Source: a virus
Lineage: Duplodnaviria; Heunggongvirae; Uroviricota; Caudoviricetes
Reading direction: 5' to 3' (one strand)
Virus record (IMG/VR): IMGVR_UViG_2657244986_000010
Location: 1-20,239 of that record
DNA length: 20,239 nt
The notes beneath the pieces are model-generated. The model was not told the origin of the DNA. It did no database searches and saw only the letters and a program-made list of their open reading frames with translations. Positions within the stretch are counted from its first letter, which is position 1, and every line of letters begins with the position of its first letter. Of the stretch, positions 765 through 20,239 are shown in pieces. The position numbers and the translations under genes are program-made.

Positions 765-867
765 TTATTACAAAAGCCATTCCCCACAGAGTGGCTTTGA
801 TAATGGCTTATACCCTACACGGGATAACTTAACTGATATCCCTTTTAACGGATAAACGGAGCCAACA

Positions 868-1110: not shown

Positions 1111-1112
1111 AC

Positions 1113-1553
1113 ATGGCACGCCCAACAAAGTATCAAGAGGCGTATGCCGAACAGGCACGCAAACTGTGCTTGCTGGGCTACACCGATGCAGAACTTGCTG
1201 ATTTCTTTGAAGTCAGTGAGTCAACTATTAACAAGTGGAAGCTTGATTATCCTAAGTTTTCGGAGTCCATAAAAAAGGGTAAGGCCGTCGCTGATGCAGA
1301 AGTTAGTGATCGTCTTTATCAACGAGCTATGGGCTTCGTGGCTCCAGACATCGATATTCGTGTTATTGAAAACAGAATTGTCGAAACTCCGCTTGAGAAG
1401 TATTACCCGCCTGATACAACCGCTGCCATCTTCTGGCTTAAGAACCGACAGAAGGATAAATGGCGCGACAAGGTTGATCACGAGCTAACAGGCAAAGACG
1501 GCGGCGCAATCCAGATTGAAACATCACCGATGAGCACTCTATTCGGAAAATGA
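1113..1553 (+). CDS. Terminase small subunit
   Basis: 146 aa ORF immediately upstream of the large terminase with an ATGA stop/start overlap. N-terminal helix-turn-helix-like segment (YTDAELADFFEVSESTINKWK). C-terminal tail (GKDGGAIQIETSPMSTLFGK) matches my recollection of the Sf6-type small terminase. Confidence 0.8.
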   Translation: MARPTKYQEAYAEQARKLCLLGYTDAELADFFEVSESTINKWKLDYPKFSESIKKGKAVADAEVSDRLYQRAMGFVAPDIDIRVIENRIVETPLEKYYPPDTTAAIFWLKNRQKDKWRDKVDHELTGKDGGAIQIETSPMSTLFGK

Positions 1554-2965: not shown

Positions 2966-2966
2966 T

Positions 2967-5165: not shown

Positions 5166-5255
5166 TTAACCCATAACGTGCAATGGCTGTCTTTATGAGG
5201 CCTGGCACCCTATTGCCTTCCGATGGGCTGAACATCGAGTAAACAGGGGTAACAA

Positions 5256-6149: not shown

Positions 6150-6167
6150 CCTATCGGAGCATTAAGC

Positions 6168-7421
6168 ATGGCTAACCAATTAGCAAAAGACCTTGAAATC
6201 ATGTTCGAAAACTACGTTGAAGGCTTTGAGGCCGCCTGCGTAGTTTCCCGTAACGCTAAAAAATTCCGTCCCGGTGATACAGCAATGCAGCGAGCAGGTG
6301 ATGTTCTGTATCGTCCGCAGCATTACCACATGAACATTGAGGAAGGCCTAGACCTCAGCGGCAAAACGCCAACAGCACTGGTTCAGCGCCTTGTTCCTTC
6401 TGTGTTCAAGGAGCCGAAAAACATTCTGTACACTCTGGATGCGCGTGAAATGCGTGACCCGGAACATAAAACTGAAGCTGGTCGCGCCGCAGGTATGCGC
6501 CTTGCTGCACAGATTGACTCTGACCTGATTTCCATGGTTACGCAGCGTGCTACTAACGTGATCACGATGGCTGACTCAACCACAGGTTCACAGGGCCGTG
6601 ATTTGTGGAATTGTGCGGCAGGTATTGATGCCACCATGACGGCGATTGGTGTACCTCAGGGTATCAACCGTCGCTCTTTCTGGAACCCCTTCAACTACAA
6701 AGACCTTGCTGGCGAGCTTGGTCACCGTGCCTATGCTCAGGGCGCAACCCTGACAGCATACGAAAAAGCGCAAATCCCTCCGGTTGCGTCCTTCGATAGC
6801 TACAAGACCGATATTTCTGGTCGTGTTCCGAAGGGTACAGCAACTTCCATTACGCTGGCAGCAGCACCTGCGCACAAGGTTGAAGCGAAAGATGCTAACG
6901 ATATGCCAGTGGATAACCGACAGGGGACCATTACGGTATCTGCTGAAGGTTTGCAGGTTGGCGATGCGTTTACCATCGCAGGGGTGAATTCTGTACACCA
7001 GATCACCAAAGATACCACCGGGCAGCCGCAGGTATTCCGCGTTCTGGCAGTAAGCGGAACGACAGTAACTATCTCCCCGAAAATTCTGCCGCCTGACAAC
7101 GCGGATGTCGCCAGCCGACCATATGCAAACGTTGATGCTAATGCGGCAAGTAGCGCAGCAATCACCATTCTCAACAAAAATGCCGCACCGGCTAACCTGT
7201 TCTGGGCTGATGGTTCTGTTGAACTGATGTACGGCAAGCTGGCGTTCCCAACTGGTCAGGGTCCACAGGTAATGACAGCAACCACCGAGCAGGGCGCTAC
7301 GCTGATCATGTCTTACGCCTTCGACCACATCAAAGGTGTAACCACTGCGCGTTTCACCACCCTGTACGGTTGCTCTGTACTTGTTCCTGAATATACGGGC
7401 ATCGTTATTGCCGGGCAGTAA
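6168..7421 (+). CDS. Major capsid (coat) protein (P22 gp5-like)
   Basis: 417 aa with a GGAG Shine-Dalgarno upstream. Position after the scaffold gene and motifs such as PYANV and NLFWADGS resemble P22/Sf6 coat. Followed directly by a terminator-like hairpin. Confidence 0.85.
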   Translation: MANQLAKDLEIMFENYVEGFEAACVVSRNAKKFRPGDTAMQRAGDVLYRPQHYHMNIEEGLDLSGKTPTALVQRLVPSVFKEPKNILYTLDAREMRDPEHKTEAGRAAGMRLAAQIDSDLISMVTQRATNVITMADSTTGSQGRDLWNCAAGIDATMTAIGVPQGINRRSFWNPFNYKDLAGELGHRAYAQGATLTAYEKAQIPPVASFDSYKTDISGRVPKGTATSITLAAAPAHKVEAKDANDMPVDNRQGTITVSAEGLQVGDAFTIAGVNSVHQITKDTTGQPQVFRVLAVSGTTVTISPKILPPDNADVASRPYANVDANAASSAAITILNKNAAPANLFWADGSVELMYGKLAFPTGQGPQVMTATTEQGATLIMSYAFDHIKGVTTARFTTLYGCSVLVPEYTGIVIAGQ

Positions 7422-7428
7422 TTTTGGT

Positions 7429-7450
7429 GGGGCTTCGGCCCCATTTTTAT
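7429..7450 (+). terminator. Putative intrinsic terminator or attenuator downstream of the coat gene
   Basis: GGGGC-TTCG-GCCCC hairpin (5 bp GC stem, UUCG-type tetraloop) followed by ATTTTTAT, starting 8 nt after the coat stop codon. Confidence 0.5.
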
Positions 7451-7462
7451 TGGGAGAAGACA

Positions 7463-7651
7463 ATGGCACGAACAATGCTCTATAAGCCTGGCAACATGAT
7501 CACCTGTGGTCAGTTTGCTGTCGATTACATCATTGTTGATGACGAAGAAGTTAAATCTCACCTGAAAAAAGGCTGGGTAAAAACTCCTGAAGAAACCGCA
7601 ACGAAGCATAAAGTGGCTAAGGCGGAAGAAGATGGCGAAAACGAAGGGTGA
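7463..7651 (+). CDS. Hypothetical small protein between coat and gp4-like genes (62 aa from the ATG at 7463)
   Basis: ORF track gives 7424..7651, but the ATG at 7463 has a GGGAGAAG Shine-Dalgarno 3 nt upstream and lies after the terminator hairpin. The 3' end overlaps the next gene by 20 nt. Confidence 0.45.
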   Translation: MARTMLYKPGNMITCGQFAVDYIIVDDEEVKSHLKKGWVKTPEETATKHKVAKAEEDGENEG

Positions 7652-8093
7652 TCTCGTTCTTAAGGCTTTACGAAAAGCCGGGCTGTATTCCAATGCCACG
7701 TTGACAGATGCTGACCCTCAGGCAATTGAAGATGCCATTAATGACCTCGAAGACATGATGGCAGCATGGCAGGCTAAAGGTATCGAGCTTGGATATCAGT
7801 TTGCTGATACAGAAAACGGCATCATGCCGTTACCTGACGATGATTCAGGTATCCCTGCATGGGCAAATGATGGCGTCGCTTTGAAACTCGCTGTGCAAGT
7901 GTGCATGGATAACGTCATTCAGCCGTCAGACGCTCTCCTTACCACTGCTGACAGTGCATATCAGACAATCTGTATCGCTTTAACCAAAATACCACCACTT
8001 GAGCGGCGAAATGACATGCCTCGCGGTAGTGGTAACAAAAGCGCGTTTACGTGGAATCGGTTTTACATCGAGAAAGATGATCCGAGTACGTGA
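7632..8093 (+). CDS. Head completion / tail accessory protein (P22 gp4-like)
   Basis: 153 aa, in the position and size range of P22 gp4 between coat and gp10-like genes. Confidence 0.65.
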   Translation: MAKTKGDLVLKALRKAGLYSNATLTDADPQAIEDAINDLEDMMAAWQAKGIELGYQFADTENGIMPLPDDDSGIPAWANDGVALKLAVQVCMDNVIQPSDALLTTADSAYQTICIALTKIPPLERRNDMPRGSGNKSAFTWNRFYIEKDDPST

Positions 8094-8102
8094 GGTGAAT
8101 AA

Positions 8103-9521
8103 ATGCCGATTCAGCAACTTCCGCTTATGAAAGGCGTCGGCAAAGACTTTCGAAACGCCGACTATATCGACTATCTGCCAGTGAATATGTTGGCTACACC
8201 CAAAGAAATCCTGAACAGCAGCGGATATCTTCGCTCATTCCCGGGCATTGCCAAACGTTCTGATGTGAACGGTGTATCTCGCGGCGTCGAGTACAACATG
8301 GCGCAGAATGCTGTTTATCGCGTGTGTGGTGGCAAGTTGTATAAGGGCGAAAGCGAAGTCGGTGACGTCGCTGGAAGTGGTCGCGTATCAATGGCGCATG
8401 GTCGAACATCTCAGGCTGTAGGCGTTAATGGTCAACTGGTCGAGTATCGCTATGATGGTACGGTTAAAACCGTCTCAAACTGGCCTACAGACAGCGGATT
8501 CACACAGTACGAGTTAGGTTCAGTTCGTGACATTACGCGCTTACGTGGGCGTTATGCGTGGTCAAAAGACGGTACTGATTCATGGTTTATCACTGACCTT
8601 GAAGACGAATCGCACCCTGACCGCTACAGCGCACAATATCGTGCCGAGTCTCAGCCGGACGGCATCATCGGCATCGGAACATGGCGAGACTTCATCGTCT
8701 GCTTTGGTTCATCGACGATTGAATATTTTTCCCTGACAGGATCAACTACCGTTGGTGCCGCTTTGTATGTCGCACAGCCATCACTGATGGTGCAAAAAGG
8801 CATCGCCGGGACTTACTGCAAAACGTCATTCGCTGATTCTTATGCGTTCATCAGCAATCCGGCAACAGGTGCTCCGTCTGTATACATCATCGGCTCCGGT
8901 CAGGTATCACCAATCGCCAGCGCGAGCATTGAGAAAATTCTCCGCTCCTACACTGCTAATGAACTGGCTGATGGTGTGATGGAGTCTCTGCGATTTGATG
9001 CGCATGAGCTGCTGATTATCCATCTTCCGCGCCATGTTCTCGTGTACGACGCATCTTCAAGCGCCAATGGTCCGCAATGGTGTGTGCTGAAAACGGGCCT
9101 GTATGACGATGTGTACCGCGCTATCGACTTCATTTACGAAGGCAATCAGATAACGTGCGGTGATAAGCTGGAGTCCGTGACCGGGAAATTGCAATTCGAC
9201 ATCAGCAGCCAGTACGACAAGCAACAGGAACACCTGCTGTTTACTCCACTGTTCAAAGCGGATAACGCCAGAGTGTTCGACCTTGAGGTTGAATCGTCAA
9301 CTGGCGTTGCGCAGTACGCCGACCGCCTTTTTCTCTCTGCAACCACTGACGGCATCAATTACGGGCGTGAGCAGATGATTGAGCAGAATGAACCGTTCGT
9401 TTACGACAAGCGTGTTTTGTGGAAGCGAGTAGGGCGCATCAGGAAAAACATTGGTTTCAAATTGCGCGTTATCACGAAGTCACCTGTCACTCTGTCTGGC
9501 GCTCAGATAAGGATTGAGTAA
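8103..9521 (+). CDS. Tail accessory protein (P22 gp10-like)
   Basis: 472 aa, the length I recall for P22 gp10, in the syntenic position. TAATG overlap with the tail needle gene. Confidence 0.75.
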
Positions 9522-10369
9522 TGGCGGATTCGAATCTCAATGTGCCGGTAATCATCCAAGCTACGCGGCTCGATACATCAGTTCTTCCACGCAATATCTT
9601 CTCGCAGTCGTATCTGCTTTACGTTATCGCACAGGGCACTGATGTTGGTAACGTGGCTAACAAGGCCAACGAGGCCGGACAGGGCGCTTATGACGCACAA
9701 GTCAGGAACGATGAGCAGGATGTGATTCTCGCTGACCATGAGCAGCGAATTTCTGCTGCGGAAGCAACGCTTGTTAATCATGAGGAGCGAATCAGCCAGG
9801 CAGAATCAACTCTTCAGGACCATGAAACGCGAATCGCTCAGAATGAAAGCGATATTGCGTCGCTTGATACCAGAGTTCAGTCGCTGGAGTCGCAGGTTTC
9901 AGACCATGAAACGCGCATTGATGCTCTGGAGTATGCAACCACACGCAAGAAGTCAGAGGTTGTTTACTCTGGCGTATCAGTAACCATCCCGACAGCGCCG
10001 ACCAACCTTGTTAGCCTGCTGAAAACGCTCACGCCGTCATCCGGGACGTTGGCACCATTCTTCGACACTGTTAACAACAAGATGGTTGTGTTCAACGAGA
10101 ACAAAACCTTGTTCTTCAAGCTGTCGATTGTCGGGACGTGGCCCAGCGGAACCGCCAACAGGTCAATGCAGCTAACATTTTCCGGTTCTGTTCCTGACAC
10201 ACTGGTAAGCGGTCGCAACTCGGCGACAACAACCGACAACATCCTGTTAGCTACGTTCTTCAGCGTGGATAAAGACGGCTTTCTTGCCACAAATGGCAGT
10301 ACGTTAACCATTCAGTCAAATGGGGCGGCGTTTACTGCCACAACCATCAAAATCATTGCGGAGCAGTGA
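9521..10369 (+). CDS. Tail needle protein (gp26-like) with extended C-terminal domain
   Basis: 282 aa. Central repeated coiled-coil blocks ([13 protein letters not shown] / [13 protein letters not shown] / [13 protein letters not shown] / [11 protein letters not shown]). The C-terminal ~140 residues are beta-rich, consistent with an Sf6/HK620-type knob rather than the shorter P22 needle. Confidence 0.8.
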
Positions 10370-10824
10370 TGATTCAGTTCAAACCAACGCGAAACATCGA
10401 CCTGATCGAAGCAGTAGGAAATCACCCTGACATTATCGCCGGGAGCAACAACGGTGATGGATACGACTACAAACCTGATTGCCGTTACTTTGAGGTGAAC
10501 GTGCACGGGCAGTTCGGCGGCATTGTTTACTATCAGGAGATTCAGCCGCTGACATTCGATTGCCACGCCATGTACCTGCCAGAGATTCGCGGCTTCAGCA
10601 AGGAAATCGGGCTGGCGTTCTGGCGATACATTCTGACTAACACCACCGTTCAGTGCGTCACATCGTTCGCCGCACGCAAATTCCGCCACGGGCAGATTTA
10701 CTGCGCAATGATTGGCCTTAAGCGTGTCGGAACCATCAAGAAATACTTTAAAGGCGTGGATGACGTGACGTTTTACAGCGCCACACGCGAAGAACTAATC
10801 GACTTCCTGAATCACGGGAGATAG
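10366..10824 (+). CDS. Ejection / DNA-transfer protein (P22 gp14-like)
   Basis: 152 aa in the syntenic position after the tail needle. GTG at 10366 overlaps the needle stop; an ATG follows at 10369. Confidence 0.6.
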
Positions 10825-10826
10825 CC

Positions 10827-11519
10827 ATGTTATATGCATTTAAGCTGGGCAGAAAACTGCGCGGCGAGGAACCTTATTGCCCTGAAAAGGGTGGGAAAGG
10901 TGGCAGTTCTGATAAAAGCGCAAAGTATGCCGCAGAAGCTCAGAAGTATGCAGCAGACCTGCAAAATCAGCAGTGGCAGACGATCATGAAAAACCTTGCT
11001 CCGTTCACGCCTCTTGCGGAGCAGTATGTTAACCAGTTGCAGAATCTTTCCAGTTTAGAAGGTCAGGGGCAGGCACTTAATCAGTATTACAACTCTCAGC
11101 AGTATAAAGACCTTGCAGGTCAGGCGCGTTACCAGAGTCTTGCTGCTGCGGAGGCGACGGGTGGACTTGGTTCGACAGCCACAAGCAATCAACTGGCTAC
11201 GATCGCGCCGACACTCGGTCAGTCTTGGTTATCAAACCAGATGAGCAATTACAACAATCTGGCAAACGTTGGGCTTGGTGCGCTGCAAGGTCAGGCAAAC
11301 GCCGGGCAGACGTACGCCAACAACATGAGCAGCATTGCACAGCAAAGCGCAGCACTTGCCGCTGCTAATGCCAATAAACCATCAAGTCTTCAGACTGCAA
11401 TTAGCGGTGGCACGTCTGGTGCGATTGCCGGTGCAGGTCTTGCCAGCCTTTTGGGAACATCAACGCCTTGGGGCGCTGGCATTGGTGCTGGTATCGGATT
11501 GCTTGGCTCGTTGTTTTAA
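10827..11519 (+). CDS. Ejection protein (P22 gp7-like)
   Basis: 230 aa. N-terminus MLYAFKLGRKLRGEEP...EKGGKGGSS closely resembles P22 gp7 as I recall it. Gly/Ala-rich hydrophobic C-terminus. Confidence 0.75.
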   Translation: MLYAFKLGRKLRGEEPYCPEKGGKGGSSDKSAKYAAEAQKYAADLQNQQWQTIMKNLAPFTPLAEQYVNQLQNLSSLEGQGQALNQYYNSQQYKDLAGQARYQSLAAAEATGGLGSTATSNQLATIAPTLGQSWLSNQMSNYNNLANVGLGALQGQANAGQTYANNMSSIAQQSAALAAANANKPSSLQTAISGGTSGAIAGAGLASLLGTSTPWGAGIGAGIGLLGSLF

Positions 11520-11528
11520 GGGGTAATC

Positions 11529-12860
11529 ATGGCTACTTGGCAAGGAACAAACGGCGGATTGTTGGCTGGTATCGGCGGCGTCAACTCAAACGCTCCGAGC
11601 GTAAATGACATCGGCAATACGCTTCAGCTTATCAGGCAGAACAATGATATTGAGCGTTCAGGCGCTAACAATGTTGGGCTGACTGCTTTGCAAGGCCTTT
11701 CAGGTATTGCGGGGGTGTTTCAGCAGGAAAAGCAGGCTCAGCGGCAGAAAGAATTTCAGCAGGCATACGCTAATGCTTATGCGTCTGGTGATCGCGGTGC
11801 TTTGCGTCAGTTGGCTACTCAATATCCAGACCAGATTGAATCCGTTCGTAAAGGCATGGGATTCATTGATGAAGAGCAGCGTAATTCTATCGGCACCTTA
11901 GCGGCTGGCGCACGCCTTGCGTCATCGTCTCCAGAAGCAATGCAATCATGGCTGCAAAACAACGCCGGTGAGTTAGCTCGTGTTGGCGTTAATCCTCATG
12001 ACGTCGCTCAGATGTACCAACAGAACCCGCGGCAGTTCGGCGAATTTGTCGATCACCTGGGGATGAACAGTCTCGGGCCCGAAAAATACTTTGACCTACA
12101 GGATAAAATGCAGGGTCGCCAGGTTACCATGCGCGGTCAGGATCTGGATTCGCAAACCGCCGCTCGGAATCAGGCAATCACAATGCGCGGACAAGATATC
12201 CAGGCGGATTTAGGTCAGCAGCGCATTAATCTGGACGCAGAAACAAACCGCATTAACAACGAAAATAAGCGCCTTGACCGGATGCTATCAGCAGAAACTA
12301 ACGACCTGAAGCGCCAGGAAATACAGAGCCGCATAGCAGCCAACAACCAGCAGTTGCAGCAGAAGCAGCAAGCGCTAAATGATGGCTACAAAGACGGCAT
12401 CAACACCCTCACAACCAGCATGTTCACTCTGAACGATATCGTTAGTTCTCCTTCACTTAAGAGCATTACAGGCTTACGTGGAGTAATCCCCAACGTTCCA
12501 GGCTCACAGGCTGCAGACACTCAGGCACGACTTGATACCTTTAAATCACAAGCATACCTGACAGCGGTTCAGGCCATGCGAGGCATGGGCGCACTTTCTG
12601 ATGCCGAGGGCAAAAAGCTCGACCAGGCTGTTGGTTCGCTGCAGAACTCGCAGAGCGAGGAGTCCTTTCGTCGCAACGCTGGCGTCATCCTGAACACGCT
12701 CAACCAGAAGCGTAATGAGGCGGTTGGTAAGTACGTTCAGCAAAACGGTATCAAGCGAGTGGAAGCGCCTCAGGCTTCTATAGATTACCTGAAGCAGCAC
12801 CCCGAACTGTCAATCGACTTCATTAATCGCTACGGATATCTTCCATCTTTGGGGCAGTAA
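11529..12860 (+). CDS. Ejection protein (P22 gp20-like)
   Basis: 443 aa with N-terminus MATWQG..., in the syntenic position. Gln-rich with a coiled-coil-like middle region. Confidence 0.75.
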   Translation: MATWQGTNGGLLAGIGGVNSNAPSVNDIGNTLQLIRQNNDIERSGANNVGLTALQGLSGIAGVFQQEKQAQRQKEFQQAYANAYASGDRGALRQLATQYPDQIESVRKGMGFIDEEQRNSIGTLAAGARLASSSPEAMQSWLQNNAGELARVGVNPHDVAQMYQQNPRQFGEFVDHLGMNSLGPEKYFDLQDKMQGRQVTMRGQDLDSQTAARNQAITMRGQDIQADLGQQRINLDAETNRINNENKRLDRMLSAETNDLKRQEIQSRIAANNQQLQQKQQALNDGYKDGINTLTTSMFTLNDIVSSPSLKSITGLRGVIPNVPGSQAADTQARLDTFKSQAYLTAVQAMRGMGALSDAEGKKLDQAVGSLQNSQSEESFRRNAGVILNTLNQKRNEAVGKYVQQNGIKRVEAPQASIDYLKQHPELSIDFINRYGYLPSLGQ

Positions 12861-15254
12861 ATGGCTAATTACCGTGATTTGTTAGAGCAGGCTGGCGCAC
12901 GTTACGGTGTGCCAGAAGGGTTGATGACTGCACTGGGTGCCAAGGAGTCTTCTTACAACCCTGCCGCAGTAAGCTCCGCCGGGGCTGTAGGATTGACTCA
13001 GGTCATGCCTGGGACATGGCGTGATATGGGTTATACCGATGAGCAAATGCAAAACCCCGAATATCAGGCTGACGCTGGCGCGCGCTATCTGGCAAAGATG
13101 TACCAGCAGTTTGGTAACTGGCGTGACGCTCTTCAGGCTTATCACGACGGTCCCGGCAACGTTATGAAGGCAAAGCGTGGTGAATATACGCCAGGACCTG
13201 AAGGCCGCGGTTACGTTGATGATCGCTTTGCTCAATGGGCGGGTGACCCGGTGACAGACTCAACAGTCGAACAGCGCGCCACCTCTGCAAAGGTACATCC
13301 TCAGCAAGACCCTAACAACCCGTTTGCACAACTGGAAGCACAGTCATCCGAACAAGTATCGGCATCAGGCGTGCAGTCAGACCCAAATAATCCATTTGCT
13401 CAGATTGAGCAGCAGGCAGCCAGTCAGCAGCCACCTCAACCCGTAAGTTCTGTCGCACCGAAACCTGTTCAGCAGCAAGGCGGAATAATGTCTGACCTTG
13501 GTAATGGACTTGCTGAAACCGGGCGCGGCTTACTACAGGCAGGAATCAACGTAGCGAACATACCTGCTGAACTCACTGATGCTGTAACAAGCGCGGCGGC
13601 TTGGGCTGGAGGTAAACTCGGCATTGGCGATGGTACATATCAACCAGCACCACGAGTAACAACGCAGGGATTAGAGCAGGACTTTGGCCTTCAGCAAGGC
13701 GCGCTGACTCCACAAACGACAGAGGGAAGGGTATTTGCTGAAGCATTGCCTTACCTCACTCCTGCTGGCGTTGAGAGAGCGGCAACACAGGCACCAACAC
13801 TTGCTGGTCGAATTGCTCAGGGTGCAACTCGTCTTCTAGCAGAAAACGCAGTTGGATCACTTGCTGCAAACAGTGCGAAAGATGATGCGGAAGCACTCGC
13901 CACCGATTTAGGCGTTGGTGTGCTGGCTGGCGGTGCTATTAACGCTGCCGGACGTGGATTAGGTGCTGCTTATCGTGGTGTTCGTGGTTCGATAGCACCA
14001 GAAGCTCAACAGGCTATCAGGTTTGCAGAGCGTGAAGGAGTTCCTCTGCACACCACAGACCTGTTACAGCCTACTTCCCGCGTCGGGAAAATGGCGCAGA
14101 CTACAGCAGAAAATATCCCCCTGGCTGGCACAAGCGGAATGAGAGCAACGCAACAGGAAGCGAGAAGCCAGTTGGTGCAGAGATTTGCCGATAAATTCGG
14201 TGAGTATGATCCAGCGGTTGTTATTGACAGCCTTAAAGCGAAAACATCAGGAATTCGTCGTGCCGCCGGTAATCGACTGGAGCAGGTTCAGAATGCTATG
14301 GCTGGAGTAAACATTCAGCCTGCGCGAGCAATTCAGCAGATTGATACAGAAATATCTAATCTGCAGAAGCTTGGTAAGGTCGCCGATAACGAGACTATTT
14401 CAAAACTTCAGTCCTATCGTGATGAGCTTGTTCGCAATGCTGGTCCTGATGGTCCGGTAAATCTGGATTTGAAGCAATTAAGCGATCTGCGCAGCCAGTT
14501 CAGAATGGACGTGAAGGGGGAACGACCAGTGTTGCCAAACCGTTCCGATGCTGCCATTCAGCGCGTTTACAAGGCGATGACAGACGATATCAATGGTGCC
14601 ATTGGTCAGAATCTTGGCAACGATACTCTCCGTAAATATCAGCAGGCCAATGCCGTCTACGCTGACGAAGCGGCGAAACTAAAGAATACCAGGCTGAAGA
14701 ATGTTCTCATGAAAGGCGACCTGACGCCGGAAGTTGTCAACAACATGCTATTCAGCAAGAACAAATCGGAAATTAAGACGCTGTATAACTCAGTTGGTCG
14801 TGTTGGCAGGGCGCAAATGCGCAATGGCATCATTGGAAAGGCGATGGAGAAATCAGGTGGTTCCCCTGACCAGTTCCTTCGGCAGCTTAACATCCTGCAA
14901 AACCAGACTGGCATCACATTTAAGGGGCAGGACGCTGCTTATCTGAAAGGATTAAAAAACTATCTGCAATCCACGCAGCAGGCTGCAAAAGCGGCAGTAA
15001 CAACACCCACAGGGCAGCAAACTATCCCGTTCATTATTGGGTATGGGACGGCAATGAACCCGGCGACAACTGGCGCAGCAGTAAGCTACGGACTTCTTAC
15101 TCGCGCCTATGAGAGCGAGCCATTCAGAAATGCAATGCTCCGAATGGCAAACACCCCACGCGGATCAACAGCGTTTGAGAAAGCCATGCAGCAGGCACAA
15201 AAGGCAATTAACGCTCTGACGCAGGGGGCTAAGTCTGATGCGTTGTCAGAATAG
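12861..15254 (+). CDS. Ejection protein (gp16-like) with N-terminal lytic transglycosylase (SLT) domain
   Basis: 797 aa. Residues ~20-100 carry the three family-1 lytic transglycosylase motifs: catalytic E-S (GAKESSYNP, Glu codon at 12945-12947), GLTQVMP, and AYHDGPGNV. Last gene of the ejection-protein cluster. Confidence 0.8.
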   Translation: MANYRDLLEQAGARYGVPEGLMTALGAKESSYNPAAVSSAGAVGLTQVMPGTWRDMGYTDEQMQNPEYQADAGARYLAKMYQQFGNWRDALQAYHDGPGNVMKAKRGEYTPGPEGRGYVDDRFAQWAGDPVTDSTVEQRATSAKVHPQQDPNNPFAQLEAQSSEQVSASGVQSDPNNPFAQIEQQAASQQPPQPVSSVAPKPVQQQGGIMSDLGNGLAETGRGLLQAGINVANIPAELTDAVTSAAAWAGGKLGIGDGTYQPAPRVTTQGLEQDFGLQQGALTPQTTEGRVFAEALPYLTPAGVERAATQAPTLAGRIAQGATRLLAENAVGSLAANSAKDDAEALATDLGVGVLAGGAINAAGRGLGAAYRGVRGSIAPEAQQAIRFAEREGVPLHTTDLLQPTSRVGKMAQTTAENIPLAGTSGMRATQQEARSQLVQRFADKFGEYDPAVVIDSLKAKTSGIRRAAGNRLEQVQNAMAGVNIQPARAIQQIDTEISNLQKLGKVADNETISKLQSYRDELVRNAGPDGPVNLDLKQLSDLRSQFRMDVKGERPVLPNRSDAAIQRVYKAMTDDINGAIGQNLGNDTLRKYQQANAVYADEAAKLKNTRLKNVLMKGDLTPEVVNNMLFSKNKSEIKTLYNSVGRVGRAQMRNGIIGKAMEKSGGSPDQFLRQLNILQNQTGITFKGQDAAYLKGLKNYLQSTQQAAKAAVTTPTGQQTIPFIIGYGTAMNPATTGAAVSYGLLTRAYESEPFRNAMLRMANTPRGSTAFEKAMQQAQKAINALTQGAKSDALSE
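13308..13409 (+). repeat. Two diverged tandem copies of a ~24-residue DPNNPFAQ-containing motif inside the gp16-like gene
   Basis: QQDPNNPFAQLEAQ... at 13308 and QSDPNNPFAQIEQQ... at 13380, spaced 72 nt (24 codons) apart, in the Gln-rich linker after the SLT domain. Codon usage differs between the copies. Confidence 0.6.
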
Positions 15255-15343: not shown

Positions 15344-15637
15344 TTAGTTGCTGTCTTTTTTATATAGCTCCTTGAGCGTATCAAAGACAATTTTCTTAAC
15401 CATATCAGATTGTTGTTCTGCCATACGCTCTGCATCGTCAATGTAAACTGATGCAGAGCTTTGTTTATCCAATGATTCTTCAATCGCTGCAATTATCTCT
15501 GAGTTCAGCGACCTGTTATTCATCTTCGCACGCTGCTTAATTTTCGCGTGGAGTTCATGCGGAAGTCTCAAGTGAAACTGCGCCTCGTCGTATTTGCTGT
15601 ACATCCTTGATGCCTCACCAGTTGGGTGGAATGGCAT
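15344..15637 (-). CDS. mnt: Mnt-like ribbon-helix-helix repressor (Arc/MetJ family)
   Basis: RHH segment FHLRLPHELHAKIKQRAKMNNRSLNSEIIAAIEESL and C-terminal DAERMAEQQSDMVKKIVFDTLKELYKK closely resemble P22 Mnt as I recall it. The true start may be the internal ATG at 15604 (GAGG 8 nt upstream), giving 86 aa. Confidence 0.8.
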   Translation of the reverse strand: MPFHPTGEASRMYSKYDEAQFHLRLPHELHAKIKQRAKMNNRSLNSEIIAAIEESLDKQSSASVYIDDAERMAEQQSDMVKKIVFDTLKELYKKDSN

Positions 15638-15725: not shown

Positions 15726-17810
15726 ATGTCAGATATCACCGCAAATGTTGTGGTAAGCATGCCTTCGCAACTCTTCACTATGGCTCGTTCTTTTAAAGCG
15801 GTTGCCAATGGCAAAATTTATATCGGTAAAATTGACACTGACCCGGTAAATCCTGAAAACCAGATTCAGGTTTATGTGGAGAACGAAGACGGCTCTCACG
15901 TTCCTGTTGCACAGCCAATCATCATTAACGCTGCTGGTTACCCGGTATATAACGGACAGATTTCCAAGTTTGTAACCGTGCAAGGCCACTCTATGTCTGT
16001 TTATGATGCGTATGGTGCACAGCAGTTCTATTTTCCGAATGTGCTGAAGTATGACCCTGACCAATTAAGGCAAGAATTAGCTTCTGACAGAGGAGCAACA
16101 TTATCATTAAGTCAGATAGCTACTTCTTACGGTCTTGATTTCTCGTTAGGCGGTGTATGGCGGGAGGGGGTGTTATCTAATGTTGATAACTGGTGGTGGT
16201 ATAATAATAAAATCTACACCGGTGGTAGCGGAAATCTGCCATCTATCCCATCAGCACCGTGGTATCCAATTCGCCCGGGATACAAATTAAACTTAACAGA
16301 CTTTATTACCTCCAAGGGTGTGAGCGATATTCTTGACGTAGTGGACTGGCAATGGGCTTTCGATAGCGCGAAGCTCAATGCTTCTCACACATCAATGCTT
16401 GACATGGACGCACGCGAATACACTATGAATTCCACTGGTTACATAGCGCCACAGGGTGTTGGTCTTCGCGGTCCGAAAGATGCAATGATGAACCCGTCTT
16501 TAGATGGTATAGCTGTTATATATGTCAATAAAGAGCCATCATCAAACGATGTGTTTGTGACAATGCAAGGTGGAAACGCATTTGAAAATTTCGGTATATT
16601 CTTTGCTCAGCAAATCTACACCACACTGGCCTCAGCGTTAGATACTGGGACGATGTTCAAACGCGTACCTGCAACTGGAGCTGGTGATGAAATTATGACA
16701 AAAGCATGCATATTAAAGGGGGTTAGCGCGTGTGGGGTTGCAAAACTTTGGAGTGGAAGCCTTGATGACAATGCGACAGGTGAATACGATGAGATAATTC
16801 GCGTTTCTGCCACGCCAAACAAATTTGGGCCTACATTTCGGTATGGTATTAGCACTGATTTTCTGCGCACAAAAACAGTTCATATTAATGCTAATGTTGT
16901 TAGCGCGTATCGAGCTAGATATGGAGTTGATTTTACGGTAAGAGCGCTAACCAGCGACAATACATCAGCCATAGGATTCCTTATTGAGCGCATGGATGGT
17001 GGTCTATTCGAGGATATCCTGACATATGGTGTTCCATTCTCGGTTGTTTTTGGTGCTGTTGGCGGGTCTGGCGGGGTTAACTCAGGTAGTGCAAACTTCG
17101 TATCATGTGGCTTTGACGCAACCTGTTTTCCTATCTACATTAACGCCCCTACAGGAGCATTTGGTATTTCTTTCTCTAACTGCCAGGCTGTCTTCGATGA
17201 GCAGTATGGTGACACGTCCGGAGCTCTGGTTTATTTGGGCGCAGGAGCTTCCTCACATCAGATAATGCTTAGCAATATCAAGGTGCAGAAGTCAGCAAGT
17301 TTCAATTATCGACCAGTAAGGGCTGTTTCTGGAAGTGCGGATAACAGGGTGACAATTTCAACCAGTGCGTTAACAGCCAGTCAAGACGTTCTTGATGAGG
17401 GAACCAGTAATCGCATAAGCATTATTGGATCAACAAGAAACCTCGGCGGCCTTAATATGATGACTAATACTACGGCAGAATCATCGCTGGTGTCATCAAT
17501 GGGGGAGTTGAATACAGTAGTAAGAAAGCAGTTATCAGTACCAATTCAAGCCGGCTCTTCATTTGTCAATTTGACAGTAACGTATCCATATACTGGTTGG
17601 CTTGCAACTCCTAATGTGATAACAGAGCTTGTCGGTGTGGCAATTCCTGGTCAACCAGATTCAACTCTTTACGACGTAAGAACGTTTTCTCGGACAGAAA
17701 ATGGGTGCGTACTTAGATGCACCTTGAGCTCAGCAGCGACTGGTAACGGTAACCTTATAGTTGACATATATGTTGTCGGTACGGTTCGGGGAACGCTCAA
17801 AGCGGTTTAG
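15726..17810 (+). CDS. Tailspike protein (conserved head-binding domain, divergent receptor-binding domain)
   Basis: Residues 1-113 ([11 protein letters not shown]...[21 protein letters not shown]...NVLKYDPDQ) match the conserved P22/Sf6/HK620 tailspike head-binding domain. GGAG Shine-Dalgarno 8 nt upstream of the ATG at 15726. The track's 15678 start adds 16 unsupported residues. Confidence 0.9.
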
Positions 17811-17830
17811 TATTGTTTATAAGCCAACTC

Positions 17831-17870
17831 GCAACTATCATGCGCATAAGAACAATGGCTTGATAGTTGC
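17831..17870. repeat. 10-bp perfect inverted repeat (GCAACTATCA ... TGATAGTTGC) with 20-bp spacer, between tailspike and acyltransferase
   Basis: Read directly from the sequence at 17831-17840 and 17861-17870. Overlaps a candidate -10 hexamer TATCAT (17836-17841) with TTGTTT 17 bp upstream. Confidence 0.5.
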
Positions 17871-17886
17871 TTGATTAGGGGGAATA

Positions 17887-19002
17887 GTGAGCAAAAACAG
17901 GTTGCATGGATTAGATGCGTGGAGAGGTGTTGCTGCGATAATGGTTGCAATTTACCATTTTAACGTTAATTCGTTTATGCATGAATTAACGATAGTTAAA
18001 AACTCATGGTTATTCGTTGAGTTTTTTTTCGTGCTAAGCGGATTTATCATGATGTATAATTATTCAGATAGAATTAATAATCGTGAGCAGCTACTTTCTT
18101 TTTTATTTAAGCGTTTTTCAAGGATTTGGCCTCTTCATATATTTGTTCTTTTTTTATTTGTGCCTGTAGCTATTGCTGGATATGTAATCGGTAATATTGA
18201 TCCGTCTCGTTTTTCTGTTGCATCATTTATAAGTAATGTATTTCTTATCCAATCGTTAGGTGTGAATGATGGCGTGACATGGAACTCTCCATCGTGGAGT
18301 ATTAGCTCAGAGTTTTTTGTTTACGTTGCGTTTGGCCTTATCACACTAACCTTTACTAAAGGGTGGTGTCGTTTTATTATTCCGTCTTTGATTTGCTTTG
18401 TTATTTTGACTAATTTTTCGAATATGGGTGATGCATACAAGCTGGCCTTCTTTAGGTGTGGTTATTCTTTTTTTATTGGGTGTGTAGTATATTATTTGTA
18501 TAAATCAAAATCATTAAAATCTGGTACATGGTTAGAAATCCTATCGGTGGTTGCTGTTGTATTAACAATGTCATTATTTTTAATCAAAGGTAATGATTTG
18601 ATTGCATATTGCATGCCTTTTTTATTCTGTGCCATTGTTTTCTCGTTTGCTCGCGGGGATGGTGTAATTAGTAAAGCAATGGGAAATAATCTTTTTATAA
18701 AGATGGGTGAGGTTTCTTACTCTATATATATGACGCATGCATTTGTTGCTATTTGTATAAAAAGCTTGTTGCTTTTATTTGGAAAGTTTATTAACCACAA
18801 TTTTTTGGTTAAAATTGGTAACGAAACGCAAGTTAATCTAGGGGGAGTTCTAGCGAATAACTTATTGGATATAGTATTTTTGGTATTGGTCATATCTTTT
18901 TCAATGTTGACATATCGATATGTTGAGTCGCCATGTCAAAGAATACTCAATGCATGGTATAAAAATAAAAAGATGGTTGAGACATCAAATTTGGTTATGT
19001 GA
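17887..19002 (+). CDS. Acyltransferase-3 family integral membrane protein (O-antigen acetyltransferase-like conversion gene)
   Basis: GTG start at 17887 with an AGGGGGA Shine-Dalgarno upstream. N-terminal LDAWRGVAAIMVAIYH and internal WSISSEFFVY motifs typical of acyltransferase_3, with multiple hydrophobic helices. Visibly AT-rich relative to the structural genes. Confidence 0.85.
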   Translation: MSKNRLHGLDAWRGVAAIMVAIYHFNVNSFMHELTIVKNSWLFVEFFFVLSGFIMMYNYSDRINNREQLLSFLFKRFSRIWPLHIFVLFLFVPVAIAGYVIGNIDPSRFSVASFISNVFLIQSLGVNDGVTWNSPSWSISSEFFVYVAFGLITLTFTKGWCRFIIPSLICFVILTNFSNMGDAYKLAFFRCGYSFFIGCVVYYLYKSKSLKSGTWLEILSVVAVVLTMSLFLIKGNDLIAYCMPFLFCAIVFSFARGDGVISKAMGNNLFIKMGEVSYSIYMTHAFVAICIKSLLLLFGKFINHNFLVKIGNETQVNLGGVLANNLLDIVFLVLVISFSMLTYRYVESPCQRILNAWYKNKKMVETSNLVM

Positions 19003-19018
19003 TTGGACTTTCTATACA

Positions 19019-19054
19019 AAGTCTTGCGCCAGATAGCAAGGCTTTGTGTTTTAC
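19019..19054 (+). terminator. Putative intrinsic terminator downstream of the acyltransferase gene
   Basis: AAAGTCTTGC / GCAAGGCTTT 10-bp stem (one G-U wobble) with an 8-nt loop, followed by GTGTTTTA, 17 nt after the acyltransferase stop. Confidence 0.45.
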
Positions 19055-19081
19055 GAATGATGAAGTTCACTCCTTACATAT

Positions 19082-20239
19082 TCAAGCATACTTTTCGTCA
19101 AGCCAATCTGCCCACCACTGCATCATTTCTCTGCGTTTATCGAGATACTGAGCATGGTTGTAAATCCCACGCACAGATCCGCCGTTGGCATGTGCCAGTT
19201 GCACTTCAATAGCATCAGCAGGCCATTCGTGCTCGTTCGTAATCGTGCTGAATTCATGCCTGAATCCGTGACCGCTTTCCAGACCTTCATAGCCGATTTG
19301 TTTGATCACAAGCAGTACAGCGTTCTCGCAAATTGGCTTCTTCTTATCGTTGCGCCCGGCAAAAACAAACTCTGATACTGGTTTGGTGATTGAGCTTAGC
19401 GTAGTGAGAAGTTCAACCACCTGGTCTGACATAGGAACCACATGAATTTTGCGTCCCTTCATCACACTGGCGTCGATGGTGATAATCCTGTTTTCAAAAT
19501 CGACGTTCTTCCATAGCATGGAACGAAGCTCTTTCGTTCTTAGGGCTGTGTAGCGTAAAACTTTGGTCGCAATGAGCGATACGATGCTTCCTGAAAATGT
19601 TGCCAGTGCTTTGTTGAATGCCGGGATCTGGTCTGCAGGAAGAAACGGGAAGTTCTTCTTGCGGTATCCCTTCATGGCGTCAGCAAGGTCAGGTGCCGGG
19701 TTATATTTAGCCCTGCCGGTGACAATAGCGTAACGGAAAACCTCGCCGCATCTTCTGCGTGCTTTGTTGGCTCGCTCCATTGCACCGCGATCTTCAAATC
19801 TGCGGATTACTTCCAGCAGTTGCATCGGCTCAATATCCTGAATCTCAAGACCGCCGATGATGGGTAAAATGTCGTCATCAAACATTTTGGCAAGTTCAGT
19901 TGCATAGCCTACTGACCAGACTTGCTTCTTGTGCTCGTACCATTCCTTGTAAATCGCACTAAATGAATTGTTGTTAGACGAAGCCTTTTTCGCCTTTACC
20001 GGATCGATGCCAACCGAGATGTCTTTCCTCGCAGTCCATGCCTTATCCCTTGCTTCCTGCAAAGTCATAAGCGGATATTTTCCGACGGTCAGGATTTTCT
20101 CCTTACCGTCAATCTTGTAGCGAAGCTGCCATACCTTTTTCCCGGATACAGGAACATAAAGGTACAGGCCATTACCATCGAGAAGGCGGTATGGTTTTTC
20201 TTTCGGCTTTGCTGCTTCAATCTGCTTAACGGTGAGCAT
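19082..20239 (-). CDS. int: Tyrosine recombinase / phage integrase (P4/P22-type with N-terminal arm-binding domain)
   Basis: 385 aa. N-terminal MLTVKQIEAAKP...YRLLDGNGLYLYV...WQLRY arm-type domain. C-terminal catalytic region with R, HGFRH and a Tyr in GIYNHAQY. Start codon is the reverse complement of the last 3 bases of the window. Confidence 0.92.
   Translation of the reverse strand: MLTVKQIEAAKPKEKPYRLLDGNGLYLYVPVSGKKVWQLRYKIDGKEKILTVGKYPLMTLQEARDKAWTARKDISVGIDPVKAKKASSNNNSFSAIYKEWYEHKKQVWSVGYATELAKMFDDDILPIIGGLEIQDIEPMQLLEVIRRFEDRGAMERANKARRRCGEVFRYAIVTGRAKYNPAPDLADAMKGYRKKNFPFLPADQIPAFNKALATFSGSIVSLIATKVLRYTALRTKELRSMLWKNVDFENRIITIDASVMKGRKIHVVPMSDQVVELLTTLSSITKPVSEFVFAGRNDKKKPICENAVLLVIKQIGYEGLESGHGFRHEFSTITNEHEWPADAIEVQLAHANGGSVRGIYNHAQYLDKRREMMQWWADWLDEKYA

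What the first reader, a model, noticed from the sequence alone, without database searches (positions are those of the whole stretch)
17887..19002. AT-rich acyltransferase-3 gene between tailspike and integrase: likely O-antigen-modifying lysogenic conversion cargo
The gene sits exactly where P22 carries gtrABC and Sf6 carries oac, between the tailspike and the att/int region. Its base composition is visibly more AT-rich than the structural genes, pointing to recent horizontal acquisition. It carries acyltransferase_3 hallmarks but its length and sequence do not match what I recall of Sf6 Oac, so it may confer a different O-antigen (or other glycan) acylation. It has its own Shine-Dalgarno, a possible promoter/operator upstream and a terminator downstream, so it looks like an independently expressed cassette.
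Basis: partly seen in the sequence, partly recalled or inferred. Interest (0 to 1): 0.6.

Follow-up and report, generated by a model that had tools for sequence, protein, structure and literature searches.

The report
Prophage O-antigen acyltransferase restricted to E. coli O141
A P22-like prophage of E. coli carries, between its tailspike and integrase genes, a foreign AT-rich membrane acyltransferase gene that most likely acetylates the host's O141 surface sugar; it is an ordinary kind of phage cargo, but an uncharacterised one found only in serogroup O141.

Summary
ORF 17887-19002 (+, GTG, 371 aa) is a full-length Acyl_transf_3 (AT3) protein. It lies between a P22-type tailspike (15726-17810) and intS (19082-20239, minus strand). 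Its GC is 33.1% against 50.6% for bases 1-15000 (z = -10).

It is an AT3-only enzyme. It has the R-X10-H and RXXR motifs and a confident ~10-helix model. It is only 25% identical to Sf6 Oac, and no sequenced phage carries it.

- **Serogroup restriction:** the gene is in 12 of 5426 complete E. coli genomes. All 12 are among the 14 genomes with O141 wzy.
- **No local substitute:** the one O141 gene cluster read (strain ST12468) contains no acetyltransferase.
- **Retention:** the ORF is annotated as a protein-coding acyltransferase gene in all 12, and full length in every copy read, although 9 of the prophages are reduced to remnants.
- **Relatives:** its nearest relatives with informative context (38-44% identity, Vibrio and metagenomes) sit in Wzx/Wzy polysaccharide loci.
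- **Same slot, other cargo:** related tailspikes are followed by gtrABC-like genes or by a Wzy-like gene.

Best reading: a serotype-converting O-antigen O-acetyltransferase specific to O141. The chemistry is untested.

A Shine-Dalgarno site and a downstream bidirectional terminator hairpin are present. A dedicated promoter is not supported. This is a new member of a known kind, of moderate to low interest.

The parts
15726..17810 (+). Tailspike: P22-type head-binding N-terminus plus a receptor-binding domain predicted to be a right-handed beta-helix depolymerase.
   Evidence: Pfam Head_binding, E = 1e-66. PGAP places the start at the position equivalent to 15726. The receptor-binding domain (RBD) has no match by sequence in the phage collection or the PDB. 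The AF2 model has pLDDT 85 and matches the Sf6, Det7, HK620 and phi297 tailspikes at probability 1.0.
17496..19165 (.). Module shared at about 99.5% identity by every copy aligned base by base: the last ~105 tailspike codons, the AT3 gene, the spacer and the 3' end of int. Upstream of ~17496 the remnant tailspikes diverge.
   Evidence: In the copies aligned, mismatches cluster at 17466-17495; there are 3-6 mismatches across the AT3 gene. The copies at the bioA/ybhB locus end at 19165.
17811..17886 (+). Spacer of 76 nt holding a 10-bp perfect inverted repeat (17831-17840 and 17861-17870) and the Shine-Dalgarno site AGGGGGA (17877-17883).
   Evidence: Sequence and fold. The promoter scan is at chance level. 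There is no GATC in the spacer, by inspection.
17887..19002 (+). AT3-only membrane acyltransferase, 371 aa, about 10 transmembrane helices. Carries R13/H24 (R-X10-H), F46-G52 (FFFxLSG), R76/R79 (RXXR), W137/E142 and E347.
   Evidence: Pfam PF01757. PHROG 3333 'O-acetyltransferase', E = 5e-50. These residues are invariant in a 51-sequence alignment. AF2 model pLDDT 94.8, pTM 0.93. GC 33.1%.
19014..19049 (.). Hairpin with a 14-bp stem between the convergent AT3 and int genes; a probable bidirectional intrinsic terminator.
   Evidence: dG -19.9 kcal/mol, z = -4.0. The consensus scan lists it as a minus-strand terminator.
19082..20239 (-). IntS-type tyrosine integrase for the argW attachment site. 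Similarity to other P22-like phages resumes at 19091.
   Evidence: Pfam Phage_integrase, Phage_int_M and Arm-DNA-bind_3. It lies next to tRNA-Arg in host genomes. Matches to Sf6, HK620 and others start at 19091.

Best explanation
The gene encodes an AT3-only inner-membrane O-acyltransferase, most probably an O-acetyltransferase, carried as lysogenic-conversion cargo by a P22-like temperate phage that integrates at argW and infects E. coli of serogroup O141.

Proposed mechanism, inferred from work on other AT3 proteins: acetyl-CoA enters the ~10-helix pore from the cytoplasm. It is held by the conserved arginines R13, R76 and R79. The acetyl group is passed at the periplasmic face, near H24, to a sugar hydroxyl of the O141 repeat unit. 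That acceptor would be undecaprenyl-linked or a nascent polymer.

Proposed effect, inferred by analogy with Sf6 Oac and BTP1 OafB: the modified O-antigen is a poorer substrate for the phage's own beta-helix tailspike. The lysogen is then protected from superinfection and its antigenicity changes.

Shown here: family membership, motifs, fold, foreign composition, the slot, the O141 restriction, and retention in decayed prophages.

Inferred, not shown: the acceptor, the acyl group and the phenotype.
For: AT3 identity:
- Pfam hit above the curated cut-off and full length.
- PHROG 'O-acetyltransferase', E = 5e-50.
- The R-X10-H and RXXR motifs named as defining and essential in PMC9833829 are invariant in 51 homologues. 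They align with R11/H22 and R73/R76 of Sf6 Oac.
- AF2 model pLDDT 94.8 with ~10 transmembrane helices. The best PDB fold match is the acetyl-CoA transmembrane acetyltransferase HGSNAT, probability 0.99.
- No SGNH or other extra domain.

Glycan target:
- All six long-contig contexts of the nearest relatives (38-44% identity) lie inside or at the edge of Wzc/Wzx/Wzy/glycosyltransferase loci.

O141 link:
- The gene is in 12 of 5426 complete E. coli genomes.
- O141 wzy is in 14 of 5426, and all 12 carriers are among those 14. Fisher p is about 7e-35. Counting only four genomic contexts as independent gives about 3e-11.
- The O141 cluster of strain ST12468 holds rmlBDAC, wzx, wzy, four glycosyltransferases and manCB, but no acetyltransferase.

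Retention:
- RefSeq annotates an acyltransferase CDS under the match in all 12 genomes. It is a full-length 371-aa CDS in the eight copies whose annotation was read. The six copies translated here have no internal stop and only 1-2 conservative substitutions.
- The tailspike is full length in only 3 of the 12 genomes, and one of those three is split by IS3. In the other 9 only its last ~320-350 nt remain.
- At the bioA/ybhB locus, int is cut to 84 nt.

Slot logic:
- Sf6 carries oac in the same slot.
- A 57%-identical tailspike in E. fergusonii is followed by gtrA/gtrB plus a 501-aa gene in the gtrC position.
- A 66-70%-identical tailspike is followed by a 446-aa protein with a weak Wzy_C hit. 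That gene is also confined to O141 genomes, 5 of 5.
- The tailspike is a predicted beta-helix depolymerase.
Against: - No chemistry or phenotype is available. I could not retrieve the published O141 O-polysaccharide structure, so I do not know whether O-acetyl groups have been reported.
- The O141 restriction could arise from the phage's host range alone, whatever the enzyme acts on.
- No convincing sigma-70 promoter was found. The gene is on the late-operon strand, unlike Sf6 oac, so expression in the lysogen is unproven.
- Two O141 genomes, MB51 and VG48B2, lack the gene, so it is not needed to make the O141 antigen.
- Several carriers are related porcine ETEC strains, so the 12 genomes are not 12 independent events.
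- There are too few substitutions to test for purifying selection.
Confidence: 0.65

Rival explanations
1. The enzyme acylates a surface or periplasmic glycan other than LPS O-antigen. Candidates are a capsular K antigen of O141 strains (porcine O141 is classically typed with K85, from my own knowledge), enterobacterial common antigen, colanic acid or osmoregulated periplasmic glucans.
For: AT3 proteins have many acceptors (PMC9558356). There is a Pfam OpgC_C hit at E = 6e-6. The Vibrio relatives lie in Wzc-type loci, which are capsule or exopolysaccharide loci as often as O-antigen loci. The O141 restriction alone cannot separate the O-antigen from a co-inherited capsule.
Against: The OpgC match covers only residues 5-94 and profile positions 1-92 of 358, which is the N-terminal region shared across AT3 proteins. 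No NCBIfam model, including equivalogs for named enzymes, matches. The gene is linked to a P22-type tailspike whose relatives are followed by gtrABC-like genes, which act on O-antigen. The carriers include human bloodstream, urinary and commensal isolates as well as pig ETEC, and these need not share one capsule type.
Confidence: 0.17
2. The gene is a passenger: an AT-rich fragment picked up from a polysaccharide locus. It would be silent or without effect in E. coli, and would be found in O141 only because the phage's tailspike limits it to O141 hosts.
For: No promoter above chance was found. A GC of 33% is typical of xenogeneically silenced DNA. Host range alone would explain the serogroup restriction.
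Against: The gene is annotated as an acyltransferase CDS in all 12 genomes and is full length in every copy read, while the adjacent tailspike and int are truncated or hit by IS elements. IS1 and IS100 landed beside it, not in it. All catalytic-motif residues are kept. It has a good Shine-Dalgarno site and a terminator. Two other cargo types occupy the same slot behind related tailspikes, as expected of a functional slot.
Confidence: 0.1
3. The enzyme does modify the O141 antigen, but its main role is not self-exclusion. It could alter immune recognition or serum or gut fitness, or change sensitivity to other O141 phages, such as those carrying the 70%-identical tailspike variant.
For: Strain 2018-01-1CC carries the AT3 remnant and, directly beside it, a second P22-like prophage with the variant tailspike. 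The gene persists long after its own phage has decayed. At that point protection against that phage matters only if relatives still circulate.
Against: The order of acquisition is unknown. The variant-tailspike module also occurs in an AT3-negative O141 strain, VG48B2. Self-exclusion is the documented role of Sf6 Oac and BTP1 OafB (PMC9558356).
Confidence: 0.08

Closest known systems
Oac (OacA) of Shigella phage Sf6: AT3-only O-antigen 2-O-acetyltransferase
   Same: P22-like phage integrating at argW. Same slot between tailspike and int. AT3-only architecture. The R-X10-H, FFxxSG, RxxR and WxxxxE motifs align residue for residue.
   Different: Only 25% identity. 371 aa against 333 aa. Opposite orientation: here the gene is on the tailspike strand and converges on int. 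Different host O-antigen (O141, not S. flexneri Y/X). Activity is not demonstrated.
OafB (formerly GtrC family II) of Salmonella prophage BTP1, and OafA
   Same: Phage- or island-borne AT3 enzymes that acetylate O-antigen. OafB protects against its own phage's tailspike (PMC9558356). The same essential residues are named for OafB: R14/H25, R71/R74, W138/E143 and E334 (PMC9833829). These match by position only; I did not align the two proteins directly.
   Different: OafA and OafB have a fused periplasmic SGNH domain that performs the final transfer. This protein has none.
AT3 genes inside Vibrio Wzx/Wzy/Wzc polysaccharide loci (P0010 from V. cholerae, P0013 from V. scophthalmi, P0014 from V. 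cyclitrophicus)
   Same: Apart from one 64%-identical metagenomic protein with no useful context, these are the closest relatives by sequence, at 38-44% identity over about 95% of the length. Similar size and similarly low GC of 29-34%.
   Different: They are chromosomal biosynthesis-locus genes, not phage cargo. They are also uncharacterised.
gtrABC of P22, and the Wzy-like cargo of related O141 phages
   Same: They occupy the same tailspike-int slot and have the same presumed purpose, altering the receptor glycan. A gtr-like set and a Wzy-like gene follow tailspikes of this same family.
   Different: Different chemistry (glucosylation or polymerisation) and unrelated proteins.
NeuO of prophage CUS-3 (K1 capsule O-acetyltransferase); from my own knowledge, not tested here
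   Same: Glycan O-acetyltransferase cargo of a P22-like E. coli prophage at argW. CUS-3 shares 59% of this window at 95% identity.
   Different: NeuO is a soluble hexapeptide-repeat enzyme that acts on capsule and is phase-variable. It is not an AT3 protein.

Membership tests
Acyltransferase-3 (AT3, PF01757) membrane acyltransferases | Match to the family profile above the curated cut-off, over the full length | tested here: met
   78.8 bits against a cut-off of 31; residues 7-344 match profile positions 2-326 of 326.
Acyltransferase-3 (AT3, PF01757) membrane acyltransferases | R-X10-H motif in transmembrane helix 1 | tested here: met
   R13 and H24 are invariant in 51 homologues and align with R11 and H22 of Sf6 Oac. 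The motif is defined in PMC9833829.
Acyltransferase-3 (AT3, PF01757) membrane acyltransferases | RXXR motif at the cytoplasmic end of transmembrane helix 3 | tested here: met
   R76 and R79 are invariant and align with R73 and R76 of Oac.
Acyltransferase-3 (AT3, PF01757) membrane acyltransferases | About 10 transmembrane helices forming the transmembrane acyltransferase (TmAT) fold | tested here: met
   AF2 model pLDDT 94.8, with helices at 7-25, 40-59, 66-101, 136-153, 161-177, 187-206, 214-230, 238-256, 277-302 and 321-370. The top PDB fold hits are HGSNAT, probability 0.96-0.99, TM-score about 0.4. No AT3 structure has been solved.
Acyltransferase-3 (AT3, PF01757) membrane acyltransferases | Acyl-CoA-dependent acyl transfer to an extracytoplasmic glycan | not testable with these tools
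   Needs biochemistry.
Phage-borne AT3-only O-antigen O-acetyltransferases (Oac type, serotype conversion) | AT3 domain alone, with no fused SGNH domain | tested here: met
   371 aa, and Pfam finds no further domain.
Phage-borne AT3-only O-antigen O-acetyltransferases (Oac type, serotype conversion) | Encoded in a temperate phage next to int/att and the tailspike | tested here: met
   Sf6 has the same layout.
Phage-borne AT3-only O-antigen O-acetyltransferases (Oac type, serotype conversion) | Orthology to Sf6 Oac or its homologues | tested here: not met
   25% identity, pairwise E = 2e-6. The best phage-encoded match is 31% identity over 76% of the length. It belongs to the same superfamily but to a different lineage.
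Phage-borne AT3-only O-antigen O-acetyltransferases (Oac type, serotype conversion) | Tied to one host O-serogroup | tested here: met
   All 12 carrier genomes are among the 14 O141 genomes out of 5426.
Phage-borne AT3-only O-antigen O-acetyltransferases (Oac type, serotype conversion) | Adds O-acetyl to the O-antigen and changes serotype or phage sensitivity | not testable with these tools
   Needs NMR or mass spectrometry and phage assays. The published O141 structure could not be retrieved.
AT3-SGNH two-domain acetyltransferases (OafA, OafB, OatA) | C-terminal periplasmic SGNH domain | tested here: not met
   The protein ends 27 residues after the AT3 profile match, and there is no SGNH hit.
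OpgC (succinylation of osmoregulated periplasmic glucans) | Full-length match to the OpgC profile | tested here: not met
   Only residues 5-94 match, covering profile positions 1-92 of 358.
Named E. coli AT3 enzymes with NCBIfam models | Match to a curated NCBIfam model | tested here: not met
   No NCBIfam family at E <= 0.1.

The most novel reading that the evidence does not exclude
The acyl group added by this prophage gene may be a near-fixed, so far unrecognised component of the O141 antigen as it exists in nature: 12 of 14 O141 genomes carry the gene, and most keep it in a dead prophage. On this reading, O141 strains and their phages are in a stepwise receptor arms race. Tailspike variant A travels with the acyltransferase. 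The 70%-identical variant B travels with a Wzy-like gene and has adapted to the modified antigen. The tailspike C-terminus and the modifying gene would then move together as one exchangeable module between phage backbones and chromosomal sites.
Probability: 0.2. Interest if true: 0.55.

Novelty: new member of a known kind. Interest (0 to 1): 0.35.

Why it matters
O141 is one of the classical serogroups of porcine post-weaning diarrhoea and oedema-disease E. coli, and it also turns up in human bloodstream and urinary isolates.

If a prophage-borne acyl group decorates most O141 antigens, three things could depend on a gene outside the O-antigen cluster that genome-based serotyping ignores:
- typing sera;
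- O-antigen vaccines;
- tailspike-based diagnostics or phage therapy for this serogroup.

More generally, the locus gives a clean natural system: 14 genomes, two cargo types and two tailspike variants. It could be used to study how receptor-binding and receptor-modifying genes travel together. As a class of element it is well known (Sf6 oac, P22 gtrABC, BTP1 oafB), so a specialist would not be surprised.

Tried and rejected
- **O141 chemistry.** I looked for the published O141 O-polysaccharide structure (Farnback 1998, Chen 2017, the supplement of the Liu 2020 review, the MALDI glycotyping supplement). None is held in the library. Whether O-acetyl has been reported stays open.
- **Literature on this gene.** No paper on it was found.
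- **DNA search of sequenced phages.** Only the int flank matches.
- **IMG/VR.** No relative found.
- **GTDB species representatives.** Only partial matches of 38-45% identity over short segments.
- **PDB by sequence.** Nothing found.
- **AFDB fold search.** The library was not available.
- **Viral fold search.** One uninformative hit.
- **NCBIfam.** No family matched.
- **The 64%-identical metagenomic homologue.** It sits next to an IS transposase on a 2.7-kb contig, so its context says nothing.
- **A corrected misreading.** I first read the IS1 in EM20-18-50 as interrupting the gene. The annotation shows it inserted in the spacer after the stop codon, so the ORF is intact. ETEC4090 gave the same kind of two-piece match with an IS1. 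I did not inspect that copy, but an acyltransferase CDS is still annotated there.
- **Kapi1 hyp24.** The Kapi1 preprint describes it as acyltransferase-like and it lies in the same slot. It is a 34-aa ORF with no similarity to this cassette.
- **Phase variation.** The upstream spacer has no GATC sites by inspection, and no copy read shows a frameshift. This is unlike the gtr, oafB and neuO systems.
- **dN/dS.** Only 3-6 substitutions separate the alleles, too few for a test.
Full report

Yes. The six-frame ORF list gives 17887..19002 on the + strand, with a GTG start and 371 aa. RefSeq annotates the same 1116-nt ORF as 'acyltransferase family protein' in identical prophages.

Pfam places the protein in Acyl_transf_3 (PF01757). 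The match is E = 5e-22 and 78.8 bits against a cut-off of 31, covering residues 7-344 and profile positions 2-326 of 326. PHROGs gives 'O-acetyltransferase' at E = 5e-50 over the full length.

Upstream lies a tailspike. Its P22 head-binding domain starts at residue 17 of the longest ORF, so the true gene is 15726-17810. Downstream, convergent, is an IntS-type integrase at 19082-20239 on the minus strand. An Arc/Mnt repressor gene lies at 15344-15637 on the minus strand.

The gene's GC is 33.1%, against 50.6% for bases 1-15000. No 1116-nt window in 1-15000 falls below 45.0%, giving z = -10. Third-position GC is 30%.

**2. Expression signals**

- **Shine-Dalgarno site.** A strong AGGGGGA lies at 17877-17883, 4 nt before the GTG.
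- **Terminator.** A 14-bp hairpin lies at 19014-19049, between the convergent AT3 and int genes. Its dG is -19.9 kcal/mol, z = -4.0, and none of 200 shuffles folds as well. The consensus scan calls it a terminator on the minus strand. I read it as bidirectional.
- **Promoter.** The promoter claim does not survive. Promoter-like hits are at chance level, and the only + strand hit (17860-17888) overlaps the start codon.
- **Inverted repeat.** The 76-nt spacer holds a perfect 10-bp inverted repeat at 17831-17840 and 17861-17870 (z = -2.4). Its role is unknown. It could be a weak late-operon terminator, an operator or a 5'-UTR element.
- **Orientation.** Unlike Sf6 oac, which lies on the int strand, this gene lies on the tailspike strand. 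Late-operon read-through is therefore possible, and expression in the lysogen is unproven.

**3. What the protein is**

An alignment with 50 homologues shows these residues to be invariant: R13 and H24 (R-X10-H), F46-F47-F48-x-L50-S51-G52, R76 and R79 (RXXR), P82-L83-H84, W137-S138-I139-x-x-E142, and E347.

R-X10-H in helix 1 and RXXR on helix 3 are the two motifs described as defining and essential for AT3 proteins (PMC9833829). In the pairwise alignment with Sf6 Oac they line up with R11/H22 and R73/R76 of Oac.

The AlphaFold model is confident, with pLDDT 94.8 and pTM 0.93, and shows about ten transmembrane helices. No AT3 structure has been solved. The best PDB fold matches are the human lysosomal acetyl-CoA transmembrane acetyltransferase HGSNAT, at probability 0.96-0.99 and TM-score about 0.4. 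That agrees with the proposed TmAT superfamily, whose abstract I saw (PMC12423673).

There is no SGNH domain, so this is an 'AT3-only' enzyme like Oac and not a two-domain enzyme like OafA, OafB or OatA (PMC9558356).

**4. How it relates to known enzymes**

- It is not an Oac orthologue: 25% identity, pairwise E = 2e-6.
- The best phage-encoded relatives reach 24-31% identity.
- No sequenced phage has the gene at the DNA level. Similarity to Sf6, HK620, CUS-3 and others resumes only at 19091, 9 nt beyond the int stop codon.
- In the 5.8-billion-protein set the cluster is purely Escherichia. It has 61 member sequences; the exact protein occurs on 143 contigs and other alleles on 61, 50 and 43.
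- The next relative is a 64%-identical metagenomic protein beside an IS element.
- After that come proteins of 38-44% identity, several of them from Vibrio.
- All six long-contig contexts I read lie within or at the edge of Wzc/Wzx/Wzy/glycosyltransferase surface-polysaccharide loci. These are two different V. cholerae loci, V. scophthalmi, V. cyclitrophicus and two metagenomic contigs. Their GC is similarly low, at 29-34%.
- The gene was therefore probably captured from a polysaccharide-locus gene pool.

**5. Distribution: the most informative result**

The cassette 17811-19081 is present at 99.4% identity or more in 12 of 5426 complete E. coli genomes.

I read the O-antigen cluster of one lysogen, ST12468, whose sequence is identical to the window over 17301-19300. 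The cluster is O141: rmlBDAC, O141 wzx, O141 wzy, four glycosyltransferases and manCB. It contains no acetyltransferase.

O141 wzy occurs in 14 of 5426 genomes, and all 12 carriers are among those 14. Fisher's p is about 7e-35. Counting only four distinct genomic contexts as independent events gives about 3e-11. One strain is present as two assemblies, and several pig ETEC strains are probably related, so the p-values overstate independence. The direction of the result is nonetheless unambiguous.

The carriers span the following sources:
- human blood (USA);
- a human urinary-tract isolate (Mexico);
- human isolates of unrecorded sample type (Vietnam);
- pig ETEC (Belgium and France);
- a swine rectal swab;
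- chicken meat (Laos).

**6. Retention in decayed prophages**

The tailspike is full length in only three of the 12 genomes, and in one of those three it is split by IS3. In the other nine only its last ~320-350 nt remain.

The surviving remnant consists of the last 180 codons of a related tailspike, the acyltransferase and some int sequence.

The remnant has the same left end at two chromosomal sites. One is argW (UPEC-245U, 2018-01-1CC). The other is beside bioA/ybhB (P13-6, the ETEC strains, EM20-18-50), where int is cut down to 84 nt.

RefSeq annotates an acyltransferase CDS under the match in all 12 genomes. In the eight copies whose annotation I read it is a full-length 1116-nt CDS. The six copies I translated are 371 aa with no internal stop. 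They differ by 3-6 nt, giving only I18L, R62G or I271V. IS1 and IS100 insertions lie beside the gene, not in it.

This pattern suggests selection for the gene. There are too few substitutions to test that formally.

The segment shared at about 99.5% identity runs from ~17496 to 19165 in the copies aligned. Upstream of ~17496 the tailspikes diverge. The unit that travels is therefore 'tailspike C-terminus + modifying gene'.

**7. The slot in related phages**

The receptor-binding part of the tailspike has no match by sequence in the phage collection or the PDB. Its model (pLDDT 85) is a right-handed beta-helix like the Sf6, Det7, HK620 and phi297 tailspikes, at probability 1.0. That makes it a polysaccharide depolymerase.

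Its few homologues are followed by other glycan-modifying cargo:
- A 57%-identical tailspike in an E. fergusonii prophage is followed by gtrA, gtrB and a 501-aa gene in the gtrC position.
- A 66-70%-identical, gapless variant is followed by a 446-aa protein with a weak Wzy_C hit of 22.7 bits, below the cut-off of 31.7.

The 446-aa gene is in 5 of 5426 genomes, again all O141. One of them is the AT3-negative strain VG48B2, where the gene follows a tail protein with a non-P22 N-terminus.

Three different receptor-modifying solutions behind one tailspike family make a strong contextual argument that the acyltransferase acts on the tailspike's receptor glycan.

**8. Mechanism proposed**

The following steps are inferred from the AT3 literature:
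1. Acetyl-CoA enters the transmembrane pore from the cytoplasm and is held by R13, R76 and R79.
2. The acetyl group is transferred near H24, at the periplasmic face, to a hydroxyl of the O141 repeat unit.
3. The modified polymer resists the phage's own tailspike, giving superinfection exclusion and an altered antigen, as for Sf6 Oac and BTP1 OafB.

My probabilities for each link:
- AT3 enzyme acting on an extracytoplasmic glycan: about 0.9.
- The acceptor is the O141 O-antigen: about 0.65.
- The acyl group is acetyl: about 0.75.
- The main benefit is self-exclusion: about 0.5.

**9. Rivals**

- **Another acceptor**, such as capsule, ECA or OPG. The OpgC hit covers only the N-terminal 90 residues, and no NCBIfam model matches.
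- **A silent passenger** whose O141 restriction simply reflects phage host range. This is weakened by the gene's retention in remnants.
- **A role other than self-exclusion.** One strain carries the remnant beside a second prophage with the variant tailspike.

Two O141 genomes lack the gene, so it decorates the antigen rather than making it.

**10. Verdict**

The element is a new, uncharacterised member of a well-known kind: serotype-converting acyltransferase cargo in the tailspike-int slot of P22-like phages.

The added value is the strict O141 association and the modular pairing with tailspike variants. Together these give a directly testable hypothesis about the O141 antigen.

Noticed in passing
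L018:9430-12922 (E. coli 2018-01-1CC); also L020, L021 and L029:4330-8119: A second tailspike variant (694 aa, 70% identical to the window's and gapless) is followed, in the same slot, by a 446-aa AT-rich (35% GC) protein with a weak Wzy_C hit below Pfam's cut-off. This gene is in 5 of 5426 E. coli genomes, all O141. In VG48B2 it follows a tail protein with a non-P22 N-terminus. It may be a phage-borne O-antigen polymerase or another converting function.
   Followed up: partly
L019:5001-9926 (E. fergusonii GCA_019219305.1): A 57%-identical tailspike of the same family is followed by gtrA, gtrB and a 501-aa gene in the gtrC position, on the opposite strand. This is a third kind of O-antigen-modifying cargo behind this tailspike family.
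   Followed up: partly
L002:7324-9355, L006:5324-7271, L014 and L015: The same prophage remnant, with an identical left end, lies at two chromosomal sites: argW and beside bioA/ybhB. At the bio site it is flanked by int sequence on both sides: a full or partial int upstream and an 84-nt int 3' end downstream. That suggests int-mediated or homologous rearrangement between tandem P22-like prophages.
   Followed up: partly
window 16086-17807: The tailspike's receptor-binding domain has no match by sequence in 50,697 phage records or in the PDB. It has about 19 full-length homologues, which carry three different N-terminal adaptors (PF09008, PF18668 and PF12571), including some in Enterobacter hormaechei. 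This is a small depolymerase family swapped between phage types.
   Followed up: partly
window 12861-15254: The 797-aa protein in the position of P22 gp16 is annotated by RefSeq as 'lytic transglycosylase domain-containing' in the identical ST12468 prophage. Other relatives have a plain 'DNA transfer protein' there.
   Followed up: no
window 164-15064: The virion-assembly half of the window is 96% identical to Klebsiella phage phiKp_30 over 74% of the window. This is a closer match than any Escherichia phage gives over that span.
   Followed up: no
window 17831-17870: A perfect 10-bp inverted repeat with a 20-nt spacer lies between the tailspike stop codon and the acyltransferase Shine-Dalgarno site. 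It is conserved in all copies aligned. Its function is unknown.
   Followed up: partly
L025:4983-5087 (phage Kapi1): Kapi1 integrates at argW and is reported to alter its host's O-antigen. It has only a 34-aa ORF in the tailspike-int slot, so its converting gene must lie elsewhere.
   Followed up: partly
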